64,000 nucleotides of DNA from Trypanosoma brucei (taxonomy: Eukaryota). A program made the position numbers and the translations under genes. The stretch is taken from NCBI GenBank assembly GCA_000002445.1, contig CM000207.1, positions 416,001 through 480,000 of the forward strand, written 5' to 3'. Position 1 is the first letter of the stretch. Every line of letters begins with the position of its first letter. Below the pieces are notes generated by a model. It was not told the origin of the DNA. It did no database searches and worked only from the letters and a program-made list of their open reading frames with translations. Of this stretch, positions 7,685-38,461 are shown piece after piece.

Positions 7685-10600
7685 TCATCCCATCAAACCA
7701 AGAAGCAACTCACGCACTTCGGTGATGCGCACGCGCTCGCCAATGGCACAGTTCAACTCACGGCGGAGAGTATCAACGCGGACGTCGACATCCTCAAGGA
7801 TAGAACGCTGCAAGTCTACCATCTTTTCATCGATTACCTCTTGGTCTTCCTTTCGTGCGAGTAGCGCAACAAATGATGCCCAAAGGCTCTCGAACCGGCT
7901 GTCAAGCTGGGACTTTGTATACAAAGCGCAAAGGTCATTCCTCTGCGCTAGCAACCCTTGTTGAACCTCGGAAACGGCAGCCTCCGCAGTCACTAAGCGC
8001 TCCACAACGGTGCCTAAGGTGGTATTGCCATCTTTCGCTAATGGAGTGTCGGTTATTACTGGTGTCGTCTCCTCTTCCACTGCGTGGTGGACAGCACCGG
8101 TCTTTAAGTGTTTTTCTATATATTTTATCTGCTCGTGGCAGAGAGAAAGACTCACTTTTGTCTCCATAAAGCCGTCCGAACAAGCGGTGAGAGCCCGTTC
8201 TAATGACAATATGCGGTCCAAAACTGTATCACCAACTGGCTGAGAAGCAATGATTGTTCCACCACCACGTAACTCTGTTACCTCGTTCTCTACCCTCTGC
8301 AGGCGCCCCCCAAGCGTAACTAGTTGATCTGACACACCGTCTGCCGTTGGCAAAGAAGGGGGGGCCGACAGCTTAGTGTCAATATCGTCCACAGCTGTTG
8401 CTAACATCCCTAGACAACTTCTCATAAAATCTAACGCATCGTTCAAATGCACTGATACAAGCGTATGCACTGCCCCTAGATTCTCCTCTGCACAATCAAT
8501 CCGCTGCTCCAGTGACAAAAGTGAAGACTGATGAACAGAACAATCTCCTTCGGGACGCGGTTCAAGCTGAGTGCTGTTCTCCACTGACCTCCGAGTTTCT
8601 TCGAATTGTGCTGTTAAACCCAGCCAGCTGCTGCGCAGCCGAGACAATTCCTCCTCGCAAATAACCAACCTTCCTTCAATAGGTGCAAACTTATCAAGTA
8701 CTGCATTCCTTTCATGTTTATGTTTCTCTAGGAACGTGGAGAACGCAGCCACGCTCGCCGAAACGTCACTCCACTCCTCAGATGCCTTCCTTATGCAACC
8801 CAAAAAAGCCTTCTCAAGCTTCTTCGTCTCAGTATGCAAAGTCTCAACGGACGCACCCAATTTTAATATGTCGGATGCGTTCATATCACTAGACTTTTTG
8901 TTTAGTGACGTAATACCTTCCAGTGTGTTAAGTTTTTCTTCTAACATGCAGAAACGGGACCGAAGCTTCTCATGTTCGTCTCGAAGATCAGAAGAGTCCC
9001 GGCGCAACTTCTCCTCATTTGCACAGACTCTATCCAACACACTCGCTACACTCTGCGACATTAACTTCATGTTGCTTTCGAATCCGTTTAAAACGGTTTG
9101 AATAGATCCGAACCTCGAATCGGTAGCCCAAGCCTGCTCCTGAACACACAAAAGGGTGTGGGGTGGTTGCGCATTATAAGGACGTGCATCAGCGCCTTTT
9201 CCCTCATCGACACACCCATACGGACTGCTCGGTTCCTTGAAGGGGTATGCAGATGTACTTTGCGCTCCCAGTGTCACTGTTTGCTCACGCAGAAAAGCGG
9301 AGTTGGACAAGGCCGCTGATAGCTTTTTGTCCATGGAAGTAACAAAGCGATAATATGAATTAGTGTGCTCCTCCACAACATTTTCACAACTGACAAGTAA
9401 CCGAAACATCTCTTTTAACTGTGCCTCGTGCTGAACCAATTTGGTCTGATTCCCATGAACTAGCAATTTTAACTCACAAATCTGGTTTTCGGTTAGGGCC
9501 ATAACCATCTCCCTGAGATGTTGAACCGCACTGCAGTTCGCCTTACCAGTGGCGGAGCCGACATGCACTGAATCATCCATTGAAGGCATAGCTGCCAGAC
9601 TGCCGTAAACACCTACGATATTTTTGAAGGCATTTACTTCGTCGCGGAGGTTCGTAATACTGCTGTCATGACTACCGACTTTCTCTATTACGGAACGTAA
9701 CCTTTCATCCATGTACCTATTACGGTTAACATCACTCAAGACGCTACCGAATTTATTGTTCAGGTTCTCGAGTTCATGTCTCACGTCACCGACATCATCC
9801 CTCGCTTTCATCTGTTGTTCTGATATCAAACTACACAAATCTTGATATTTTCTTTCGAGCGCGGCTCGTTCGTGCCTCATCGATTCCTCTAGTAGATTCT
9901 CAACCTCTCCTCGAATGTACCCCTTCGAAATTACGAGCTCCAGTGCATCAAGCCTTCGGAAGGCATCTTCAATCTTCGCCTTGGCCCCACTGGGCGCGCC
10001 AAAGTGATTTAATTGCCTAGTCACCTCACCAGTTGCGCGACGCATTTCATCCACTTTTATATTTAGTTGATCAGTTTCCTTTGTGACTTCATCGAACTTT
10101 TGGTTGATTGCATCTCTTAGTTCCACAGCCATCACATCATGCGCACCTCTTATTTCTTGAATAATGCTCGCTAGGGAGCGCTGCGCCAGTGTGCTTTGAC
10201 TGGGCGGTGTAGAAAGCTTTCCAGTTAAAGCTTGGAGCCTTCTTAGGGCGGTGAATATAGTTTCAAAACGATCATCAGTAGATATCCCGCTGTCCCTAAC
10301 CAGGGAAACCATGGTATCGAGTCTGTCGTTAAGCGCCGAGACGTTTTTGTCGTGCATGGAAACCACTGCACTAACTTTGGTATTATCTTCATTAACTGCA
10401 TCCAACAGTTTCCTGTGGTCCTGTAACTGAGCCTTGATGGCGTTGATTTCCCCAAATACCGAATTCTCAAGCTGGCGCAACGCGGCGTTTACACATTGTA
10501 TATCTTCTCTGTATTTTGATGATAGGTCAAGTTGTTTTCTGGATACAAGGGCAATTTCTTCCCTTAGTTGGTTGATATCTCTACTTACACTAGAACTATC

Positions 10601-14813: not shown

Positions 14814-15473
14814 TTGCTGGGACACCGTTTTTTATTTGTCGATCCCTGGGCACGTGCCATCAGTAGTATCATCCGCACTAAGATGCTGCTGTCCGGTGAT
14901 GTGGAAGAGAATCCCGGCCCGTCGTTTCGCGGGATGCAGTGGAACTGCGCCGGGCTATCTCAAGGAAAGAGATTAGCACTCCACAAAACCCTTGTTGATG
15001 AGCGGATTGCCTTTTGTCTGTTGAGCGAGACAAGGATGACGCCTGGAGAGGCGGCTTGCTTTAGCGTTGCTGGCTACCAACATCACGTAATAGCTCGTAA
15101 CTGCAAAGGAGGTGCTATATCAATACTAGTGAGGGAGGACCTGCCAGTCGAGACCGGTATGGTCGTCGTTGGTCGCATTGAACAAGTGCATGCAACAATT
15201 CACCTTGCACGTGGAACGGCGCTGACTGTCACGTCGGCACACATCCCACCAAAACACACCTTCACGGCAACTGACCTAGATACGCTTCTGACGACTGACG
15301 GTGCCCAGCTCATCGGTGCAGACGCTAACGCACACGCGTTGGCATGGGATCGCGCGAGCCCACCAAATACCAAGGGTGAAACCCTCACACAGTGGTGCAT
15401 TGACAACCAGTTTCTGGTCTGCAACACTGGTGAGTGCACAAGATACGCGCCACCACGGGGAGTCCACCCCTGA
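14814..15473 (+). pseudogene. Retroelement ORF fragment carrying an N-terminal 2A peptide plus an AP (apurinic/apyrimidinic) endonuclease domain. It is frame-disrupted relative to the downstream RT ORF.
   Basis: The 219-aa ORF reads MLLSGDVEENPGPSFRGMQWNCAGLSQGKRLALHKTLVDERIAFCLLSETR..., an exonuclease-endonuclease-phosphatase fold signature. It ends at a TGA while the alternate frame continues (..HHGESTPDVTLSRNCRVYTWISLYSPDSDHH), which indicates a 1-nt indel. Confidence 0.75.
14898..14921 (+). other. Viral-type 2A 'ribosome-skipping' motif D-V-E-E-N-P-G-P near the N-terminus of the retroelement polyprotein.
   Basis: The sequence gatgtggaagagaatcccggcccg encodes DVEENPGP, preceded by LLSG; the canonical 2A C-terminal consensus is D(V/I)ExNPGP. 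Functional 2A sequences are established at this position in L1Tc/ingi elements. Confidence 0.7.
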
Positions 15474-17640
15474 TGTGACACTGTCAAGGAATTGTAGAGT
15501 GTACACGTGGATATCGCTGTATTCTCCCGATAGCGATCACCATCACATATTTTTCGACGTTATCGTTGGAGACGAAACAGATGCGCTGAGCTGCCCGCGG
15601 CCTCGAAAGCCCATGTACGCATGGCTAAAAGCTGACTGGAGGAATTTCCGTCTGAAGGTTGACGAGTACTGCAGGAAAATTGGTAGAAAGAAGAACGTCA
15701 ACACCCTGGAACAGAAATTGAGCTCCGCCATCCGCATTGCGACGAAGGTCTCCGTCCCCCGTGGCTGCAGAGCAACGCCACCACATTGGACACCTGCGCT
15801 CGCGAAACTCGATGAAGAGATCGCTGGATGCGGACCCTCCCACCGAAGGGAAAAGTTGGTAGCCACGCGTAAGCAGATCCTGGACCGTACCACAAAGAAG
15901 AGATGGAGCACGCTATGCTCCAGACTTGCGGTGTCAGACCGCTGCAGTTGGCACATTGTCAAGAAGGTATATGCACCACGACCACTAACCACACCGGCGG
16001 CGCTGGTTGATAACGCGGCCATCACGGACTACCGTCAAGCTGAGAGGTTCATTAAACTGTACTCGTCCCGCGCAAGAAGACACCCCGACTCACACCCACC
16101 GGCACCCATAAAGACGACAGCGAGTGAGTTCAGTCCCATCACGATGGCTGAACTACGGAGATCGATCAAACTGCTACCGAGTGGATCCGCAGCCGGACCT
16201 GATTGCTTATACAACGAGGCACTACAACATATCGGTAGAACAGCGCTGAATGTTGTTCTGAGGCTATTCAACGAGAGCCTACGAACGGGAGTCGTGCCGC
16301 CTGCATGGAAGACTGGTGTTATCATCCCCATCCTGAAGGCCGGAAAAAAGGCGGAGGACCTCAAATCTTACAGGCCTATGACACTCACGAGCTGTCTCTG
16401 CAAAGTCATGGAACGCATAATTGCCGCGAGGCTTAGAGACACTGTTGAGTCCCAGCTGACGCCGCAGCAATCAGGCTTTCGCCCCGGATGCTCAACGCTC
16501 GAACAACTCCTGCACGTCCGTGCTGCCCTCTGCCGTCCCACGCACCAATATCGTACGGGTGCTGTATTCGTCGACTACTCGAAGGCATTCGATACAGTAG
16601 ACCATGACAAAATTGCGAGGGAAATGCACAGAATGAAGGCATCACCCCACATTGTGAAGTGGTGCGTATCATTTCCGAGTAACCGAACTGGCAGAGTGAG
16701 ATTCAAGGAGAAGCTTTCCAGAAGCAGAACATTTGAGCGAGGAGTGCCACAAGGAACTGTCCTTGGCCCAATCATGTTCATTATTGTCATGAACTCGTTG
16801 AGCCAATGCCTTGCAGAAGTGCCGTTACTGCAGCACGGATTCTTTGCAGACGACCTAACGCTACTTGCGAGGCACACAGAGAGGGATGTCATCAACCACA
16901 CGCTACAATGCGGCCTAAACGTGGTGTTACAGTGGTCAAAAGAGTACTTCATGTCTATCAATGTAGCGAAAACAAAGTTCACACTCTTCGGGTGTATAGA
17001 GCGCCACCCCCTTACATTACAACTGGACGGCGAAAGAATAGGAGCTGACAGGACACCGAAGCTTCTAGGAGTAACATTCCAGTGTCTGCAAGGGATGGCA
17101 ACACATGCGACCGAAACGGGACGCAAGATGGACTTCAGACTACTGCAGATAGCGGCCATCTCAGCTTCTACATGGGGGCCAAGAAGACAAGTACTGAGAG
17201 CTTTTTATCTAGCACTCGTACAGGCACACACCATGTATGGCATTGAGGTATGGTACTGGTATGCTTGGAAACGAAGTCGCGACCTCCTTGCAGCAGCGCA
17301 ACACAAAGCCAGTCGCATCATAGCTGGCATACCGCATGGGACGCGCGAAGAGGACTCTCTGCTGGAAGAAAACCTCCTGCCACTCAAGACGACCACTCTT
17401 GTGCGCAGCATGAAATTCATGCTGATGTGTGAGTCACGAGGCGGATGTTTGCGCTGCAGTGCTGAGGAAGTATACCGCAGCAAACACCCAGTCAGAGCCC
17501 TACATTCCCGCAGCATGCGGTCCTACCCCCACCTCCGCATTGAGCCATGGAAACAACCACTTTGGCCGGCGGTTCTTCAATGTAACTGCAGGACGATATT
17601 TTACACATGGGACAAGCCCGTGGGCAACGGGCACCCCTGA
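15301..17640 (+). pseudogene. Retroelement reverse-transcriptase ORF (non-LTR RT domain). Its N-terminus carries the tail of the APE domain in a shifted frame, and it stops before any recognisable RNase H/zinc-finger region.
   Basis: The ORF is 779 aa. RT motifs are visible in order: PILKAGKK..YRPMTLTSCLCKVMERI (finger/palm), a central motif at FVDYSKAFDTVDH, and the catalytic F/YxDD at HGFFADDLTLLA (16841-16870). Downstream frames (17429-18550) are fragmented. Confidence 0.8.
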
Positions 17641-26830: not shown

Positions 26831-28222
26831 TTAAAAACACTCGGCTATGGCACGCGCGGCAAGCAGCACATCCTTGAAAGTGTTGTACAACGGCACTGGA
26901 GCGAGGAAGACAAGGTCCGTCGAGCACGTACTAACAATAATACCGACATCACGCAGATACCGCTCCATGCACTCCGCGTCACTTTCACTCTCACCCCCAT
27001 ATGAGGCCCGTGGCGTAAGGCTCGCTGACAATTTATTGGGTAGTATACGAATAGTCAACTGTGCTCCGCGCTGGCTTGGGTCGACGGAGGTCAAAAGGCG
27101 GATGGAGCCAGGCGGAACCAACTCACCGAGCAATAACTCCAAATAGGATGTCAGCAAAAGTGATTTCTCGCGTAGTGAGTCCATGCCAACCTTTGCTATG
27201 AGGCGCACACTTGGTAACAGGGCCATCATGCCAAGCACTGACACATTACTGAGCTGAAACCCTGCAGCGCCTTCCGCAGGCTCAAATTTATAGGACGGAT
27301 CAATGAGATCCCGCGGTTCGTGACCCCTACAGCCACGGAGCGTCTTGAGCTCACTCCCAACCTGCGTATGCTTCGTGTGCACAAAGGCACCAGCAAGGTT
27401 TCCTGGCCCGCTGTTTAGGTATCTATAAGTGCACCAACTTGCAAAATCCACCTCCCACTCGTGCAATTTGAGAGGCACGTTACCCACGGCGTGCGCACAA
27501 TCCACACCCACGATGATGCCTTTGGCGTGCGCGGCCTTCGTTATGGCCTGCACGTCAACCAGTTGCCCCGTAATAAAGTGGAGGGCGCTGAGTAGTATCA
27601 CCGCAATCTCACTCCCCCGCTTGTCGATGATGGAGAGGTATTCGGTCATTGGTATGTGTGCTGGGGAATCTTTCCCATCCTCATCTTTAGGAGCACACAC
27701 AGTGATGAGGTCCTCCGCTGGGTTAAGGCCCCGGGCCTCCAATTGCGACATCACCGCATAAACATTGTTGGGAAGGGCATAGTTCCCCATCATCACTAGC
27801 CGCCGATTTCCTTTCGGCTTGTAGAAGGCTATTAGCAACAAATGCAAGTTCACCGTGTAGGAATTCATTGTGATTACCTCACTCTCCTGCGCCCCGACAA
27901 TTTCCGCGATCTCCTTCCGGCCAAGGCGATCGACCTCAGCCCACGGGTTAGGGTGTTGGAATTCAGCGAGCACGCCGAGCTCACGCCACCGCTTCAGGGC
28001 ACCAGCAACACTCGACTCCACGTCCTTGTGCTGCAAACCAAGTGTTTGCCCACAGAGGTAAACGTGATCGGAACCGTCGCGCCGCTTTGGAATATTAAAG
28101 GCGTCGCGATGCACTTGCAGTGGGTCATTGCGGTCCATGCACTCAGCAAAACCATCTTCGGTGAGCGCAAGACCCTCGGCTCGTGCGGTGCTAAGAAGTT
28201 TTTCCGCTGCGTTATTGCGCAT
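26831..28222 (-). CDS. Kynureninase-like PLP-dependent enzyme (class V aminotransferase fold), with Arg where the PLP Schiff-base Lys is expected.
   Basis: The 463-aa protein has an N-terminal FNIPK...VYLCGQTLGLQ and the family core ...VDFASWCTYRYLNSGPGNLAGAFVHTKH, which corresponds to kynureninase ..[24 protein letters not shown]. The expected Lys codon reads AGA (Arg) here. Confidence 0.8.
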   Translation of the reverse strand: MRNNAAEKLLSTARAEGLALTEDGFAECMDRNDPLQVHRDAFNIPKRRDGSDHVYLCGQTLGLQHKDVESSVAGALKRWRELGVLAEFQHPNPWAEVDRLGRKEIAEIVGAQESEVITMNSYTVNLHLLLIAFYKPKGNRRLVMMGNYALPNNVYAVMSQLEARGLNPAEDLITVCAPKDEDGKDSPAHIPMTEYLSIIDKRGSEIAVILLSALHFITGQLVDVQAITKAAHAKGIIVGVDCAHAVGNVPLKLHEWEVDFASWCTYRYLNSGPGNLAGAFVHTKHTQVGSELKTLRGCRGHEPRDLIDPSYKFEPAEGAAGFQLSNVSVLGMMALLPSVRLIAKVGMDSLREKSLLLTSYLELLLGELVPPGSIRLLTSVDPSQRGAQLTIRILPNKLSASLTPRASYGGESESDAECMERYLRDVGIIVSTCSTDLVFLAPVPLYNTFKDVLLAARAIAECF

Positions 28223-28483
28223 ATAGGCGTCGAATGTATTGGAAGCGGTGTACTTGCACTTGGGTGCACGTTATACCCTCCGCTACTTCGGCTACTTCTT
28301 TGGCGACCTGCTCCGTCTCTGTTATGTACGTAAGCTATGCGTTCCAGGTGCTTAACTTTACACCAGTTGATGTATAAGGTTACCCGATACGATTCTACTT
28401 TTTCACCCTTCCCTTAGTTGTCAGCCCCCAGGATACCGGAGAATAATGACTAATTTCCTCCCTTACCCCGCTTCCCTTACGTT

Positions 28484-30710: not shown

Positions 30711-32528
30711 TCACAGGGATAAAATGCCCTTGAGTTCCCGCAGCACTTCTTCAAAACGATTCTCTGCAGAATCCAGTCCACAATCCACTCGTTCCTGTCG
30801 TAGTGCCTCCCCGCGCGCTGTGAGAGCGGCTTGCATGGACTCTAGTGTCCAGGTTCCATTAAAGGAGAAAACTTCTTCATTCCCACGGCGTTGTGGGCGG
30901 GAGATGATGCCAATGTCCGCAAAACCATCGATGGCCGACGAAATCCCTGCCGCATTCATTGACGGGAATCTTTGTTGGCCCATTAGTGCTGTATACAGGC
31001 GGTGCACAACCCGCGTCGTGAAGGTGCCGGGAACTACTGGACCCGGCTCTGCCGCGGAGTATGAGCCGAACGAAGACCCAATGGCCGTTTTGTTTTGCCG
31101 CCGCCCAACAGCGGAGGTGCTACCGATGCTCACCTTTGCGATTTGACTGTCTCGTTGTTGCCGCAGCATAAGTACAACGAGACAACTAAGGACGTAGAGC
31201 ATTTGCTCCGGCATTGCCGACACATATTCGAAGACACGGTCGCCAACAGAGTCGGGTCCACGGAGTATTTTTTGGCTCTGAGCCAATGTGATGAGCGCCG
31301 CTGGGACCCCGGGAGAGTTTCCACCAGGAGCAGTTGCCCCCGCCAGTTCACGGCTGCCCCGCGGCGTCTCACCGCCCTCGGTGGACACACGCCCCTTAGG
31401 AGGGACACTTTTCTTCTGTTCCTCTACGGCCGTGTGAATCAATCGTCGGCACATGACGGCCACTTGCCGCACATCACCCGAAAACTCAACAAGGGCCTTA
31501 CGAGCGATGTATCTAATGAGTCCCGGACTAAGCTGCACCTGTTCCTTCTCCTTCCGTGTGAAATGGGCAGCGGCGACGATGTGATTACCAATACTTTCTA
31601 ACATCTCGGCGCTGTAAGCCTCAAAAGGCAACTCCTTTAGTAACATGTGGGGGACGTGCACGAACTCCCGCTGGTTCGATATGAATACGAGGGCGAGTTG
31701 TGAGGCGTACTCAGCCGATAGTTCGGCTAGGGATGCAAGCGCTCCGCGTGCGGCGGCGCGAACGTATTCCACCTCATCGAGTACAAGAACATGCAGTGGT
31801 GTCTTCACCGTAGTCTTTGTCAACCCCGCAGTTGGGAGTCCCTCTTCTATTGGTTGTTGGTCGTAGTGCTTAAGTAGTTCGCGGCTGCGGCGCCTCATTG
31901 CCGAAACTCGCTTCGGAATACCCCCGACCGCATTTACGAGGGTGCGAGTCTGCGCATCCAAGCGAACCTGTGAACTGCAAAATGTTTCACTAATGGAATC
32001 ACAAAGCTGTTGCGCTGTCATATCCGCACAGTTGACGTAGTGACACTGCACTCGCCGACCCTTCCCAAACAAGTGTGGGAACAGTACAGTTGGATCGCCT
32101 GGGGTTGCTGCATTCCCAATGCTGCGGAAATGGCCGTCTTTAACGTTATCAGCGCTCACTGCCGCAGCACCCGCAGCATTCCCTTCGGTCTCGGACCCCC
32201 GTTGGCGCTTTGTTGGTCGCTGCCGCTCCATTTGCTTCTGTTGCTTTCGTCCCGCTGCTGGCGGAGGCGAATCGCTGAGGCCCCCACCACCGTTGCTGCT
32301 ATTGCTACCGGTGCTGGAGCGACCAGCCGCTTTATCATAAGTCATCACTCTATGCGTAACCCGGCGCATGGCCCGAATTATCGTTGACGTCTTACCAGAC
32401 CCGCAAGCACCAAAGACAAATAGCGACTTGCAGTGCTGAATCAGCAGACGTTCCTCGATGAACCGAAGTACATCGTTATATTCTTGTTCCCGTCCCAATA
32501 GCGGGGTATTTTCCATCATTCCTCTCAA
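30711..32528 (-). CDS. ORC/CDC6-family AAA+ ATPase-like protein, a candidate origin-recognition-complex subunit (ORC1b- or ORC4-like). It has a long low-complexity insertion between Walker A and Walker B.
   Basis: The N-terminus LLGREQEYNDVLRFIEERLLIQHCKSLFVFGACGSGKTSTII shows the L.GRE.E....FI...L motif followed by a GxxGSGKT P-loop, as in ORC1/CDC6/ORC4. Walker B is hhhhDE at HVLVLDEVEYV, about 210 aa later (the usual spacing is about 70-80 aa). A G/S/N-rich insert lies between them. Confidence 0.6.
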   Translation of the reverse strand: MRGMMENTPLLGREQEYNDVLRFIEERLLIQHCKSLFVFGACGSGKTSTIIRAMRRVTHRVMTYDKAAGRSSTGSNSSNGGGGLSDSPPPAAGRKQQKQMERQRPTKRQRGSETEGNAAGAAAVSADNVKDGHFRSIGNAATPGDPTVLFPHLFGKGRRVQCHYVNCADMTAQQLCDSISETFCSSQVRLDAQTRTLVNAVGGIPKRVSAMRRRSRELLKHYDQQPIEEGLPTAGLTKTTVKTPLHVLVLDEVEYVRAAARGALASLAELSAEYASQLALVFISNQREFVHVPHMLLKELPFEAYSAEMLESIGNHIVAAAHFTRKEKEQVQLSPGLIRYIARKALVEFSGDVRQVAVMCRRLIHTAVEEQKKSVPPKGRVSTEGGETPRGSRELAGATAPGGNSPGVPAALITLAQSQKILRGPDSVGDRVFEYVSAMPEQMLYVLSCLVVLMLRQQRDSQIAKVSIGSTSAVGRRQNKTAIGSSFGSYSAAEPGPVVPGTFTTRVVHRLYTALMGQQRFPSMNAAGISSAIDGFADIGIISRPQRRGNEEVFSFNGTWTLESMQAALTARGEALRQERVDCGLDSAENRFEEVLRELKGILSL

Positions 32529-36426: not shown

Positions 36427-37488
36427 TTATTTACCATCATCTGGTAGTGGCTGCCTTCCGCTATCACGCATCTGCGCAACAAGCCAATTCATCCCGTCAA
36501 CAACTCCTGTGCCATGCAGCGCGCTCATCTCAACGAGTCGCATTACTCTATTTCCAATACCACTTGAACCCGGTGGGGGCGTGGCCACACCACCAAACGA
36601 TTTTTCGTTTGAAAGTTTGTCATATGCCGACCGATCCGGCGGACCCTCATAATCCCCCTCACCATTCCTGTGCAACTCGCCATAAACGGGCTCACCCACC
36701 ACACAATCGTCTGCGTAGAATTCATCCATCAGTGCCACATCAACTAATCGCAGCGCGTCCTGAATTTCTACGAGAGTATGATGGTTTGCTGCATCCACCT
36801 TGTTCGATACAATTAGGAGTGGGGCGCCAGCTAGTAATGGATGACTGAACATCTGGCGGAGGATGAGCGCATCCTTCGCATACAATTTACGGAGGAATTG
36901 GGATCGCTCTCCTTCACGTACATCCCCTATAGGTGAGTTGGGTTGGGCACCTACATCACTTTCGTCATCTTCACTCGTACCAACTTGATCAGGTGAAGTT
37001 TTCCTGCCTCCTTCACTGCAACCATTTGATGTGGCCTCACCTAACGTGCTGTCCACAACAAATATAACACCATGACATGTACCAAAAAAGTTTCCCCAAA
37101 GAGGTCGTAATGACCCTCCTATATCCCATAATATAAGTGGCGTCGTTAAGGGTGTGAGCGAGACATTTGGTGTCTCATGCTGCGGTGGCGTTGTTACGTG
37201 CGTGACGCTCGACCTATTCAATCCTGTAGTTGGCCTAATTTTTTTCCTCAAAGACTCCACCGGGGCCGGTGTGGGAAAATTATAGTTTACCTCACTTGCA
37301 GTTGCGTCACCACTATTTTCTTCCGTAGTGGAACTGTTGGCACCATTCTTGCTACTTTCCGTCGCGTACATGTGCTTGAGCTGCTCTGATAGCGTTGTCT
37401 TCCCAGATGACTCCAACCCAACGATCAGAACTTTCCTGGTGTCATCGGCGAAGATGGAACTGTAAAGACCCCGGACAAGCGAAAACAT
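36427..37488 (-). CDS. ARF-like (ARL) small GTPase with unusually long loop insertions. Its 353 aa compare with about 180 for typical ARF/ARL proteins. The start is reassigned to MFSLVRGLYSSIF.
   Basis: The motifs appear in order: G1 VLIVGLESSGKTTL, a switch-I-like RPTTGLN, G3 LILWDIGGSLR, G4 LLIVSNKVDA, and the ARF C-terminal SALHGTGVVDGMNWL. S/T/P/E/D-rich inserts sit between G1 and switch I, between G3 and G4, and between G4 and the SAL motif. The ATG is at 37486-37488 on the reverse strand. A purine-rich tract lies upstream at 37500-37640. Confidence 0.75.
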   Translation of the reverse strand: MFSLVRGLYSSIFADDTRKVLIVGLESSGKTTLSEQLKHMYATESSKNGANSSTTEENSGDATASEVNYNFPTPAPVESLRKKIRPTTGLNRSSVTHVTTPPQHETPNVSLTPLTTPLILWDIGGSLRPLWGNFFGTCHGVIFVVDSTLGEATSNGCSEGGRKTSPDQVGTSEDDESDVGAQPNSPIGDVREGERSQFLRKLYAKDALILRQMFSHPLLAGAPLLIVSNKVDAANHHTLVEIQDALRLVDVALMDEFYADDCVVGEPVYGELHRNGEGDYEGPPDRSAYDKLSNEKSFGGVATPPPGSSGIGNRVMRLVEMSALHGTGVVDGMNWLVAQMRDSGRQPLPDDGK

Positions 37489-38461
37489 TGCGTCGTCGGA
37501 GCTCTTTCGCAAAACGGTTACCTTCGTCGTGTGGAAGAGAACCAAAATAAAATCGAGCAAAAAAAATAATAATAATATAAATAACAGAGGTTTCAAGGGA
37601 AGCGATATATAGATAACCAGCACGAACACCCATACATTGCACTGCGAACTCCCACAGCATTCATAATGCGGCAGCAATTTGACACGGGTAATAAGCCGAT
37701 ATTCACTGGCATATGCCGCTCACAACAATAACTTCACACGACACGAGGCAACTCCAGGTCCCTTTGTTGATTGCTCCACGGTTGAAGTTAGTAAACAAGC
37801 CAACATGCCTTGGAAAGTTCCAATCCCCCCCCGTTATTTCCCCAGTCTCCGACAACTTCGCATGTGGACGTATGTGCATAAGAAATGGCGGGTCGACTTG
37901 GTGGAGTTTTTCTTTCTTTTAAAAAAATCAACATCTCGAAGGGGAGGGGAGTTCACATGTTAATGCATTCAACGCTTGTTGGAGTTGTGCCGTCTGCTCC
38001 GCCCTTCCCGTCAACTCCAAACATGAATTTACACAAAAGCCGCTACCATCCAGTTGAAATGAGGACTTGAAAGGTGTGTTTGCCACCACTTTACCTCCCT
38101 TTACACGGCATGTGCATTCCTTTTCCCATACAAGTGCGCGGACATACAGAATAAAGTCCCACTGATATATTCTGTTTACCTTTTCCTTCAAATGTATGAA
38201 GGCATGAAGCATGACCCGCCTCTCTTCCAAATCCTTAGACAATCTAACACATGATATTCCTATATAGACACTACAGTGAAGTAAAAGAGCGACTAGGGTT
38301 AAATCAGCAGTCCCATTAACTCACTACAATGGAGAACCACAGCCTCTCTTACAACCCTTACCCAAACGGGAGAAACCACTCTAGATACAATGTTAGAAAA
38401 TGCAGAGAAAGGAAATCAACATAAAAACAGTGATAATATCGTTTCCACGCCAACGCTGCCT

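What the first reader, a model, noticed from the sequence alone, without database searches (positions are those of the whole stretch)
26831..28222. Kynureninase-like gene with Arg (AGA) at the position of the PLP Schiff-base lysine
The family core reads DFASWCTYRYLNSGPG, whereas kynureninases that I recall (human, Pseudomonas) read [16 protein letters not shown], with that Lys forming the internal aldimine with PLP. I verified on the DNA that the codon is AGA, not AAA. If the alignment is right this is a catalytically impaired pseudo-enzyme, a strain-specific point mutation (AAA to AGA), or a sequencing error. Trypanosomatids are also generally thought to lack a complete kynurenine/de novo NAD pathway, so an isolated kynureninase homologue is metabolically odd in either case.
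Basis: partly seen in the sequence, partly recalled or inferred. Interest (0 to 1): 0.5.

Follow-up and report, generated by a model that had tools for sequence, protein, structure and literature searches.

The report
Lysine-less kynureninase homologue of trypanosomes
The Trypanosoma brucei gene annotated as kynureninase has arginine where the enzyme's cofactor-binding lysine should be, and because this and about a dozen other active-site losses are shared across the genus while the protein stays under strong purifying selection, it is most likely a conserved "dead enzyme" with a different, unknown job.

Summary
ORF 26831..28222 (minus strand, 463 aa) is the T. brucei "kynureninase, putative". 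It passes the TIGR01814 cut-off and is predicted to fold like human KYNU (TM 0.89-0.92). Codon AGA (27422-27424) puts Arg267 exactly at human Lys276.

The change is neither a sequencing error nor strain-specific:
- The protein is identical in T. b. gambiense and T. equiperdum records.
- Seven Trypanosoma species have Arg, encoded by AGA, CGT or CGG. T. theileri and T. melophagium have Met.
- All 87 non-trypanosomatid homologues have Lys.

T. brucei has also replaced 13 more of the 59 near-invariant family columns, including the equivalents of human H102, F165, D168, W305, R428 and R434.

The gene is not decaying. ORFs are intact, and dN/dS is 0.07-0.12, equal to or below syntenic neighbours. 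The former active-site columns are now the least conserved part of the protein (0.48 versus 0.70 within-genus identity).

Best reading: an orphan, genus-wide pseudoenzyme kept for a non-kynureninase role. Leishmania and Porcisia show a parallel, independent decay.

Main caveat: a 2009 paper on recombinant T. cruzi "kynureninase" could not be read, and no activity data were available.

The parts
26831..28222 (-). Complete CDS of the kynureninase-like protein (463 aa plus TAA stop)
   Evidence: ORF list. TIGR01814 286.8 bits. 100% identical to T. brucei, T. b. gambiense and T. equiperdum entries. AF2 model pLDDT 92.3, TM 0.89-0.92 to human KYNU.
27422..27424 (-). AGA codon = Arg267, at the position of the PLP Schiff-base lysine (human K276)
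   Evidence: The column is Lys in 87/87 canonical homologues and R or M in all nine Trypanosoma sequences. Codons are AGA, CGT or CGG in other species.
28139..28222 (-). First 28 codons (MRNNAAEKLLST...), omitted from the 435-aa TREU927 annotation, which starts at M29 (28136-28138)
   Evidence: P0001 is a suffix of the window protein. The N-terminus MRN.A.E.LLST is conserved in all trypanosomatid orthologues. The T. b. gambiense entry is 463 aa.
27962..27964 (-). Glu87 replacing the family-invariant His (human H102)
   Evidence: His in 87/87 canonical. E/E/A/N/N/E/E/N in Trypanosoma. Mapping from the alignment. Codon checked.
27854..27859 (-). Tyr122-Thr123: Tyr replaces the invariant Leu (human L137); Thr (human T138) is kept in T. 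brucei but is G or S in the T. cruzi and T. theileri clades
27764..27775 (-). Leu150-Pro-Asn152-Asn153 replacing the invariant F-P-S-D (human F165, S167, D168; the PLP-ring environment)
   Evidence: F, S and D are each 87/87 in canonical homologues. L/L/I/S/S/L/F/F and N/N/N/S/S/N/N/S in Trypanosoma.
27500..27502 (-). Asp241 (human D250, partner of the PLP pyridine N1), retained
   Evidence: Asp in all nine Trypanosoma sequences, including the partial T. grayi one. Codon checked.
27326..27331 (-). Cys298-Arg299 replacing the invariant W-W (human W305-F306)
27302..27307 (-). Leu306-Ile307 replacing the invariant R-F (human R313-F314)
26906..26932 (-). Ser431...Cys433...Phe439 replacing the invariant D, R and R (human D426, R428, R434; R434 is the substrate alpha-carboxylate binder)
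   Evidence: D, R and R are each 87/87 in canonical homologues. S/C/F in T. brucei. The role of R434 is from memory of the human KYNU structure papers.

Best explanation
The gene encodes a conserved, catalytically dead descendant of kynureninase: an orphan pseudoenzyme.

Proposed history. The ancestor of Trypanosoma inherited a normal eukaryote-type kynureninase. Free-living and early-branching kinetoplastid-like homologues, and many insect trypanosomatids, still keep every catalytic residue. The tryptophan-to-NAD pathway was lost. The Schiff-base lysine then changed to Arg at the base of the genus. After that, the residues that hold PLP and the substrate drifted apart in each lineage.

What remains. 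The fold, the length and most of the sequence are held by strong purifying selection. The protein therefore does something useful that does not need the old active site.

Most likely mode of action. It probably acts as a stable, presumably dimeric, binding or regulatory partner rather than by hydrolysing kynurenines.

Shown here:
- Arg at the lysine position, genus-wide and maintained through synonymous codon turnover.
- Loss of 9-18 of the 59 near-invariant family columns in each Trypanosoma species.
- dN/dS of 0.07-0.12.
- A predicted fold that superposes on human KYNU.
- Relaxed constraint confined to former active-site columns.

Inferred:
- Absence of kynureninase activity.
- A non-catalytic mode of action.
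- Dimerisation.
For: (1) R267 pairs with human K276 in an ungapped, high-confidence alignment. The column is K in 87/87 non-trypanosomatid homologues.

(2) The column is R in T. brucei, congolense, vivax, cruzi, conorhini, rangeli and grayi, and M in T. theileri and T. melophagium. Arg codons are AGA, CGT and CGG, so Arg has been kept through synonymous turnover.

(3) T. brucei keeps only 45 of 59 columns that are at least 86/87 invariant. Strigomonas keeps 59/59. The 13 nearest non-trypanosomatid homologues (P0034-P0046, including Trypanoplasma borreli) keep 58-59/59. Lost positions include the human H102, L137, F165, S167, D168, W305, R313, F314, D426, R428 and R434 equivalents.

(4) NG86 dN/dS is 0.068 (cruzi-conorhini), 0.098 (cruzi-rangeli), 0.118 (conorhini-rangeli) and 0.078 (melophagium-theileri). 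Syntenic neighbours in the same pairs give 0.084-0.199.

(5) The 24 canonical-invariant columns that changed have a within-genus pairwise identity of 0.476, against 0.703 for all columns. Only 1 of 10,000 random column sets is as low.

(6) AF2 model pLDDT 92.3 and pTM 0.92. Foldseek TM 0.89/0.92 and rmsd 2.0-2.3 A to human KYNU 2hzp, 3e9k and 7s3v.

(7) There is one hit per Trypanosoma species among the top 120 homologues. No live paralogue is visible.

(8) Pathway context is missing. There are no de novo NAD genes in trypanosomatids. No TDO/IDO is found in T. brucei, T. cruzi or Leishmania.

(9) The gene is transcribed in T. cruzi. The Leishmania orthologue is detected by proteomics.
Against: - No biochemical data could be consulted. 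Ecco et al. [quoted passage not shown] If it reports activity, this reading is wrong, at least for T. cruzi.
- Part of the PLP site survives: D241 (human D250) is invariant, and H244, Y266, S325 and N326 are mostly kept. Non-covalent cofactor or ligand binding is therefore not excluded.
- One metabolomics paper reports anthranilate and 3-hydroxyanthranilate in T. brucei and argues for a kynurenine pathway.
- The positive function is unknown.
- No T. brucei expression, localisation or knock-down data were examined.
- The absence of a paralogue rests on a protein search, not on a genome scan.
Confidence: 0.7

Rival explanations
1. Neofunctionalised enzyme. The protein still binds PLP, or another ligand, non-covalently in a remodelled pocket. 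It catalyses a different or much slower reaction. Arg267 would then act as an anion or carboxylate binder instead of a Schiff-base former.
For: D241 (human D250) is invariant, and H244, Y266, S325 and N326 are largely kept. Arg is preserved in 7 of 9 species through codon turnover, which suggests Arg itself matters. Overall purifying selection is strong.
Against: The pocket residues that replaced the canonical ones differ between species: position 87 is E/A/N, 122 is Y/H/F/Q, 150 is L/I/S/F, 433 is C/L/Q/Y, and 439 is F/R/L/H. These are the least conserved columns in the protein, which is not what a new conserved active site looks like. Arg is itself replaced by Met in T. theileri and T. melophagium. 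The Thr138 equivalent (phosphate binding) is Gly or Ser in the T. cruzi and T. theileri clades.
Confidence: 0.17
2. A real kynureninase, as currently annotated and assumed in the literature. It would detoxify host 3-hydroxykynurenine or feed a cryptic kynurenine pathway, working without an internal aldimine.
For: It passes the TIGR01814 equivalog cut-off. Several papers treat it as an enzyme. Kynurenine-pathway metabolites have been reported in T. brucei. T. cruzi keeps the R434 equivalent.
Against: In the kynureninase mechanism the substrate is deprotonated at C-alpha and reprotonated at C4' (described). From established PLP enzymology, the active-site lysine performs these proton transfers and also forms the internal aldimine; Arg can do neither. 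In addition, 9-18 other near-invariant residues are lost per species, including the PLP-stacking Phe, the D168 equivalent and, in T. brucei, the carboxylate-binding Arg. The lost columns now evolve freely.
Confidence: 0.06
3. A decaying pseudogene, or a strain-specific mutation or sequencing error at one codon.
For: A single A-to-G change converts AAA to AGA.
Against: The protein is identical in independent Trypanozoon genome records. Arg or Met is present in all nine Trypanosoma species, with different codons. ORFs of 463-465 aa are intact in every full-length species. dN/dS is 0.07-0.12. Transcripts are detected in T. cruzi.
Confidence: 0.02
4. A prozyme-type regulator. The dead subunit would pair with, and control, a live enzyme partner, as in T. 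brucei AdoMetDC and deoxyhypusine synthase. The partner might be another class-V aminotransferase-fold protein, such as a cysteine desulfurase.
For: Trypanosomatids repeatedly use dead paralogues as activators (papers listed: PMC3663545, PMC5201418). Kynureninase active sites are built across a dimer interface (memory of the structure papers). The next-best fold matches are SufS, CsdA and Nfs-type desulfurases.
Against: No live kynureninase paralogue is seen in any Trypanosoma. Similarity to desulfurases is remote, at 13-18% identity, so heterodimerisation is pure speculation. This is a sub-case of the best explanation rather than a true competitor.
Confidence: 0.05

Closest known systems
Kynureninase (EC 3.7.1.3; TIGR01814; human KYNU, PDB 2HZP/3E9K; Pseudomonas fluorescens, PDB 1QZ9)
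   Same: Same family by sequence: 286.8 bits against a 246.4 cut-off, and E about 1e-74 to human KYNU. Same length and domain order (Aminotran_5 plus KYNU_C). Same predicted fold, with TM 0.89-0.92. It keeps the D250, H253, Y275, S332 and N333 equivalents and the eukaryote-type N-terminal helix.
   Different: It lacks the Schiff-base Lys (K276 to R). It also lacks the H102, L137, F165, S167, D168, W305, R313, F314, D426, R428 and R434 equivalents. No upstream or downstream pathway enzymes are reported in the organism.
Orthologues in Leishmania, Porcisia and Leptomonas seymouri
   Same: The locus is syntenic: an epimerase gene lies upstream, as in T. cruzi and T. conorhini. Many of the same columns have decayed, namely the Y275, W305, R313, D426, R428 and R434 equivalents. 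ORFs are intact, with dN/dS of 0.18-0.23.
   Different: The decay is independent, because related insect trypanosomatids keep most of the set: Crithidia 56/59, Novymonas 57/59, Angomonas 57/59 and Strigomonas 59/59. Lys is still present in L. donovani, L. tarentolae and L. panamensis, but is Thr in L. martiniquensis and Porcisia and Asn in L. seymouri. Selection is weaker than in Trypanosoma.
Trypanosomatid 'prozymes' (AdoMetDC prozyme, dead deoxyhypusine synthase paralogue)
   Same: These are catalytically dead enzyme homologues conserved across trypanosomatids and kept under selection (PMC5201418 and PMC3663545, listed).
   Different: Prozymes are paralogues that activate a live sister enzyme. 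Here the gene is single-copy, with no live kynureninase to regulate, and the whole pathway is absent.
Pseudoenzymes in general (review PMC10211241, listed)
   Same: It fits the sequence-based definition: a member of an enzyme family that lacks conserved catalytic motifs, yet is conserved and expressed.
   Different: No kynureninase-family pseudoenzyme turned up in the literature searched. The function and any partners are unknown.

Membership tests
Kynureninase (EC 3.7.1.3, TIGR01814) | Whole-protein score above the curated family cut-off | tested here: met
   TIGR01814 286.8 bits against a 246.4 cut-off. Pfam KYNU_C 40 bits against 27, and Aminotran_5 34.6 against 21.5.
Kynureninase (EC 3.7.1.3, TIGR01814) | Fold-type I PLP fold superposable on solved kynureninases | tested here: met
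   AF2 pLDDT 92.3. Foldseek TM 0.89/0.92 and rmsd 2.0-2.3 A to 2hzp, 3e9k and 7s3v. TM 0.78/0.89 to 1qz9.
Kynureninase (EC 3.7.1.3, TIGR01814) | Schiff-base lysine in the Y-K-Y-L-N motif (human K276) | tested here: not met
   Arg267, codon AGA at 27422-27424. The column is Lys in 87/87 canonical homologues.
Kynureninase (EC 3.7.1.3, TIGR01814) | PLP-ring and phosphate environment (human L137/T138, F165, D168, D250, Y275, W305*, S332*/N333*) | tested here: not met
   Kept: T123, D241, Y266, S325 and N326. Lost: L137 to Y, F165 to L, D168 to N and W305 to C. Residue roles are from memory of the human KYNU structure papers.
Kynureninase (EC 3.7.1.3, TIGR01814) | Substrate-binding residues (human S75, H102, R434) | tested here: not met
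   S75 to T, H102 to E and R434 to F in T. brucei. Each of these columns is 87/87 invariant in canonical homologues.
Kynureninase (EC 3.7.1.3, TIGR01814) | Hydrolysis of L-kynurenine or 3-hydroxykynurenine | not testable with these tools
   The only paper on a recombinant Trypanosoma protein (Ecco 2009) could not be read.
Kynureninase (EC 3.7.1.3, TIGR01814) | Pathway context (TDO/IDO, KMO, HAAO, QPRT in the same genome) | not tested
   Literature only. De novo NAD genes are absent from trypanosomatids. No TDO/IDO is found in T. brucei.
Pseudoenzyme (conserved catalytically dead enzyme homologue) | Clear homologue of an enzyme family that lacks essential catalytic residues | tested here: met
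Pseudoenzyme (conserved catalytically dead enzyme homologue) | Maintained by purifying selection and not a pseudogene | tested here: met
   ORFs are intact in all eight full-length species. dN/dS is 0.07-0.12, at or below syntenic neighbours.
Pseudoenzyme (conserved catalytically dead enzyme homologue) | Constraint released at the former active site specifically | tested here: met
   Within-genus identity is 0.476 at the changed invariant columns against 0.703 overall. Only 1 of 10,000 random sets is as low.
Pseudoenzyme (conserved catalytically dead enzyme homologue) | Expressed as a protein | tested here: inconclusive
   T. cruzi transcripts are detected and differentially expressed. The L. 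braziliensis protein appears in a proteome. No T. brucei data were found.
Pseudoenzyme (conserved catalytically dead enzyme homologue) | Experimentally shown to lack the ancestral activity | not testable with these tools
   Needs an enzyme assay.
Trypanosomatid prozyme (dead paralogue activating a live enzyme) | A catalytically competent paralogue in the same genome | tested here: not met
   Only one homologue per Trypanosoma species appears among the top 120 hits. The weakest listed hit has E 5e-88, so a live paralogue would have been listed.

The most novel reading that the evidence does not exclude
The Arg (or Met) protein may not be inert. One possibility is that it still turns over kynurenines or a related host metabolite without any Schiff-base lysine, which would be an unprecedented way for a fold-type I PLP enzyme to work. 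Another is that it has become a sensor or sequestering protein for host kynurenines such as 3-hydroxykynurenine, which is toxic to T. cruzi. A link to vertebrate infection would fit the parallel remodelling seen in Trypanosoma and Leishmania, both of which infect vertebrates.
Probability: 0.12. Interest if true: 0.8.

Novelty: new variant of a known kind. Interest (0 to 1): 0.55.

Why it matters
Databases and several papers treat the trypanosome protein as a working kynureninase. It has been cited as evidence for a parasite kynurenine pathway, as a possible detoxifier of host 3-hydroxykynurenine, as a source of AhR-active metabolites, and as a possible drug target. None of the passages read mentions the missing lysine.

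If the protein is catalytically dead across the genus, those ideas need revisiting and the annotation should change.

It would also be an unusually clean evolutionary case. An orphan enzyme outlived its pathway. It lost its cofactor lysine once at the base of a genus. Its active site then drifted while the rest stayed under strong selection. Part of this happened again independently in Leishmania. That makes "what does the scaffold do?" a directly testable question in genetically tractable parasites.

Tried and rejected
Papers that could not be read:
- Ecco et al. 2009, tried by PubMed id and by DOI.
- The human KYNU structure paper PMC2531291.
- The Phillips 2011 review PMC3102132.
Residue roles are therefore given from memory and marked as such. 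The data-driven set of columns at least 86/87 invariant was used instead.

Literature searches that found nothing useful:
- Residue names.
- A T. brucei gene id.
- 'kynureninase' plus 'pseudoenzyme'.

Look-ups and computations that failed or were limited:
- The look-up of encoding contigs on the 435-aa TREU927 product returned nothing. Independent confirmation came from cluster members instead.
- dN/dS between deep pairs (T. brucei or T. vivax against the others) is unusable, because synonymous sites are saturated: NG86 returned -1 and YN00 returned nan. Only four shallower pairs were used.
- The first dN/dS script failed on a file-name assumption.
- Conserved and variable sites could not be mapped onto 3D coordinates, because model coordinates are not exposed to scripts.

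Ideas rejected:
- A displaced catalytic lysine. No conserved new Lys exists except K8 in the N-terminal helix.
- The VHTKH lysine. It aligns with human K293, which is not the PLP lysine.
- Genetic-code or frame artefacts. The ORF is clean and colinear with all orthologues.
Full report
**What is there.** The interval 26831..28222 is a single clean ORF on the minus strand, 463 codons plus TAA. Its product matches NCBIfam TIGR01814 'kynureninase' at 286.8 bits (cut-off 246.4). It also matches Pfam Aminotran_5 and KYNU_C. It hits the human kynureninase structures at E 2e-75 to 7e-74 and the Pseudomonas fluorescens enzyme at 4e-27. The window is Trypanosoma brucei. The protein is 100% identical to the TREU927 'kynureninase, putative'. 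Over all 463 residues it is identical to the entry shared by T. b. gambiense DAL972 and T. equiperdum.

**The observation.** The motif reads DFASWCTYRYLNSGPG. The codon is AGA at 27422-27424 on the minus strand. In the phmmer alignment the motif pairs without gaps with human [17 protein letters not shown], so Arg267 sits on human Lys276. In a MAFFT alignment of the window protein with 119 homologues (P0002-P0120), this column is Lys in 87 of 87 non-trypanosomatid sequences. No new conserved lysine appears in Trypanosoma apart from K8 in the N-terminal helix.

**It is not an error or a strain mutation.**
- Arg is present in T. brucei, T. congolense, T. vivax, T. cruzi (all lineages, plus T. c. 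marinkellei), T. conorhini, T. rangeli and T. grayi.
- T. theileri and T. melophagium have Met.
- At the DNA level the Arg codon is AGA in brucei and cruzi, CGT in vivax, and CGG in conorhini and rangeli. The Met is ATG.
- The amino acid has therefore persisted while its codon changed. A sequencing error or a recent point mutation cannot produce that pattern.

**The lysine is only one of many losses.** I defined 59 columns that are identical in at least 86 of the 87 non-trypanosomatid homologues.

| Group | Columns kept (of 59) |
|---|---|
| 13 nearest non-trypanosomatid homologues, P0034-P0046 (incl. Trypanoplasma borreli) | 58-59 |
| Strigomonas | 59 |
| Angomonas, Novymonas | 57 |
| Crithidia | 56 |
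| T. brucei | 45 |
| T. congolense | 41 |
| T. vivax | 43 |
| T. cruzi | 47 |
| Other Trypanosoma | 48-50 |

Using the alignment for numbering, T. brucei has these changes: S75T, H102E, L137Y, F165L, S167N, D168N, K276R, W305C, F306-position W to R, R313L, F314I, D426S, R428C and R434F. From my memory of the human and Pseudomonas structure papers, which I could not open, these residues have the following roles:
- F165 stacks on the PLP ring.
- D168 and W305* belong to the cofactor environment.
- H102 and S75 line the substrate pocket.
- R434 binds the substrate alpha-carboxylate.

D250 (the N1 partner), H253, Y275, T138, S332 and N333 are retained in T. brucei. The partial T. grayi sequence has K to R but still keeps the W-W, D426, R428 and R434 equivalents. 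This suggests that the lysine went first and the rest decayed later, lineage by lineage.

**The gene is nonetheless under strong selection.** All full-length orthologues are intact, at 463-465 aa, with a conserved start (MRNNA.EKLL) and end (AECF). Where synonymous sites are not saturated, the values are as follows.

| Gene | cruzi-conorhini | cruzi-rangeli | conorhini-rangeli | melophagium-theileri |
|---|---|---|---|---|
| KYNU-like | 0.068 | 0.098 | 0.118 | 0.078 |
| Upstream epimerase | 0.084 | - | - | 0.085 |
| Downstream gene (about 715 aa) | 0.199 | - | - | 0.146 |
| Gene two positions upstream (632-685 aa) | - | - | - | 0.174 |

The lysine-less protein is at least as constrained as its neighbours.

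The predicted structure is confident (pLDDT 92.3, pTM 0.92). It superposes on human KYNU with TM 0.89-0.92 and rmsd 2.0-2.3 A. Synteny supports orthology. T. brucei and T. vivax share the order Yip1, 605/613-aa protein, KYNU-like, 704-aa protein, Sec1. T. cruzi, T. conorhini, T. melophagium and Leishmania share an epimerase gene just upstream.

**Constraint has been inverted at the active site.** The 24 family-invariant columns that changed in at least one Trypanosoma now show a within-genus pairwise identity of 0.476, against 0.703 for all columns. Only 1 of 10,000 random column sets of that size is as low. The replacement residues differ between species:
- position 87: E/E/A/N/N/E/E/N
- position 122: Y/Y/H/F/F/H/Q/F
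- position 150: L/L/I/S/S/L/F/F
- position 433: C/C/L/C/C/Q/Q/Y
- position 439: F/F/F/R/R/L/L/H

The columns that real kynureninases never change are the ones trypanosomes change most freely, while the rest of the protein is tightly held. That is what a protein looks like when it has given up its ancestral catalysis but is kept for another reason. It argues against a newly conserved catalytic pocket.

**Context.**
- Published genome surveys report that trypanosomatids lack both de novo NAD routes and need nicotinate or nicotinamide.
- No TDO/IDO has been found in T. brucei, T. cruzi or Leishmania. A TDO homologue is reported only in Paratrypanosoma, Bodo, T. theileri and T. melophagium.
- Only one kynureninase homologue per Trypanosoma species appears among the top 120 hits. 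There is thus no live paralogue for a 'prozyme'-type arrangement like those known for T. brucei AdoMetDC and deoxyhypusine synthase (papers listed).
- The gene is transcribed in T. cruzi. The Leishmania braziliensis orthologue is seen in a proteome.

**Parallel decay elsewhere.** Leishmania donovani, L. tarentolae, L. panamensis, L. martiniquensis and Porcisia keep only 44-46 of the 59 columns. They have lost many of the same positions, namely the Y275, W305, R313, D426, R428 and R434 equivalents. L. martiniquensis and Porcisia also replaced the lysine (Thr), and Leptomonas seymouri has Asn. On the accepted phylogeny, Crithidia and Novymonas are closer relatives of Leishmania than Trypanosoma is, and they keep nearly everything. 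This decay is therefore independent. Leishmania copies are intact, with dN/dS of 0.18-0.23. That is purifying selection, but looser than in Trypanosoma.

**Interpretation.** Best supported, at about 0.7: a genus-wide, orphan pseudoenzyme derived from kynureninase.
- Shown: the residue losses, their phylogenetic spread, purifying selection, predicted fold retention, and release of constraint at the old site.
- Inferred: that it has no kynureninase activity, and that it acts through binding or scaffolding, presumably as a dimer like its relatives.

The chemical argument runs as follows. The kynureninase mechanism involves deprotonation of the substrate at C-alpha and reprotonation at C4' (described). 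From established PLP enzymology, the active-site lysine carries out these proton transfers and also forms the internal aldimine. A guanidinium group or a thioether can do neither.

Rivals:
- A remodelled enzyme or ligand binder that uses non-covalent PLP, about 0.17. It is favoured by the retained D250 equivalent and by the persistence of Arg. It is disfavoured by the species-to-species variability of the pocket and by Arg to Met in one clade.
- A real kynureninase, about 0.06.
- A prozyme-like regulator of an unrelated partner, about 0.05. This is a sub-case of the main reading.
- A pseudogene or error, about 0.02.

**Caveats.**
Citing papers call the protein 'putative' or simply assume it is active.
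- A metabolomics study argues for kynurenine-pathway metabolites in T. brucei.
- Residue roles come from memory.
- No T. brucei expression, localisation or fitness data were examined.
- The absence of paralogues and pathway genes rests on a protein search and on the literature, not on a genome scan.

**Novelty and score.** Pseudoenzymes are common, and trypanosomes are known for them. A search of the held literature for 'kynureninase' plus 'pseudoenzyme' returned only two papers, and neither title concerns a kynureninase-family pseudoenzyme; I did not open them. In the passages I read, the papers that discuss the trypanosome protein do not mention the missing lysine. I rate it a new variant of a known kind, with interest 0.55. 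It corrects an annotation that is being built on, and it offers a clean, testable case of an enzyme scaffold outliving its pathway. The positive function is still unknown, and the conclusion is computational.

Noticed in passing
window 28136-28222 (minus strand): The TREU927 GenBank/UniProt product (435 aa, Q38FV7) starts at Met29. The upstream in-frame ATG at 28220-28222 gives 463 aa. Its first 28 residues (MRNNAAEKLLST...) are conserved in all trypanosomatid orthologues and are present in the T. b. gambiense entry. The TREU927 start is probably annotated too far downstream.
   Followed up: yes
L009-L012 (Leishmania donovani, L. tarentolae, L. panamensis, L. martiniquensis), gene at 1001-2407 in each: Leishmania orthologues show an independent, partial decay of the same active-site columns, keeping 44-46 of 59. 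The lysine is kept in three species and is Thr in L. martiniquensis (and in Porcisia). ORFs are intact, with dN/dS of 0.18-0.23. The 'kynureninase' annotation is doubtful there too.
   Followed up: partly
L006 and L007 (T. melophagium, T. theileri), gene at 8001-9398: These two species have Met (ATG) instead of Arg at the lysine position. According to the literature, they are also the only trypanosomes with a TDO homologue. A TDO alongside an even less lysine-like kynureninase homologue is unexplained.
   Followed up: no
window 15301-17640 (+ strand): A 779-aa ORF has a strong reverse-transcriptase domain (RVT_1, E 3e-44). It lies on the opposite strand to the surrounding minus-strand gene array and is probably a non-LTR retrotransposon copy.
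   Followed up: no
window 30711-32528 compared with L002, L005, L006 and L009-L012: In T. cruzi, T. conorhini, T. melophagium and Leishmania, an NAD-dependent epimerase/dehydratase gene lies immediately upstream of the kynureninase-like gene. In T. brucei and T. vivax that slot is occupied by a 605/613-aa protein with only a weak AAA-ATPase match (the T. vivax protein has no Pfam hit on record). The epimerase appears to be missing or moved in these two species.
   Followed up: no
window 36427-37677 (minus strand): A 416-aa ORF has only a short Arf-family match (residues 173-212) plus weak G-alpha and SRP-receptor-beta P-loop matches. It is an unusually long, divergent small-GTPase-like protein.
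   Followed up: no
window 27429-27761 and 27842-28333 (+ strand): Two antisense ORFs of 110 and 163 aa lie inside or overlap the kynureninase-like CDS. They are most likely chance ORFs on the non-coding strand of a conserved gene.
   Followed up: no
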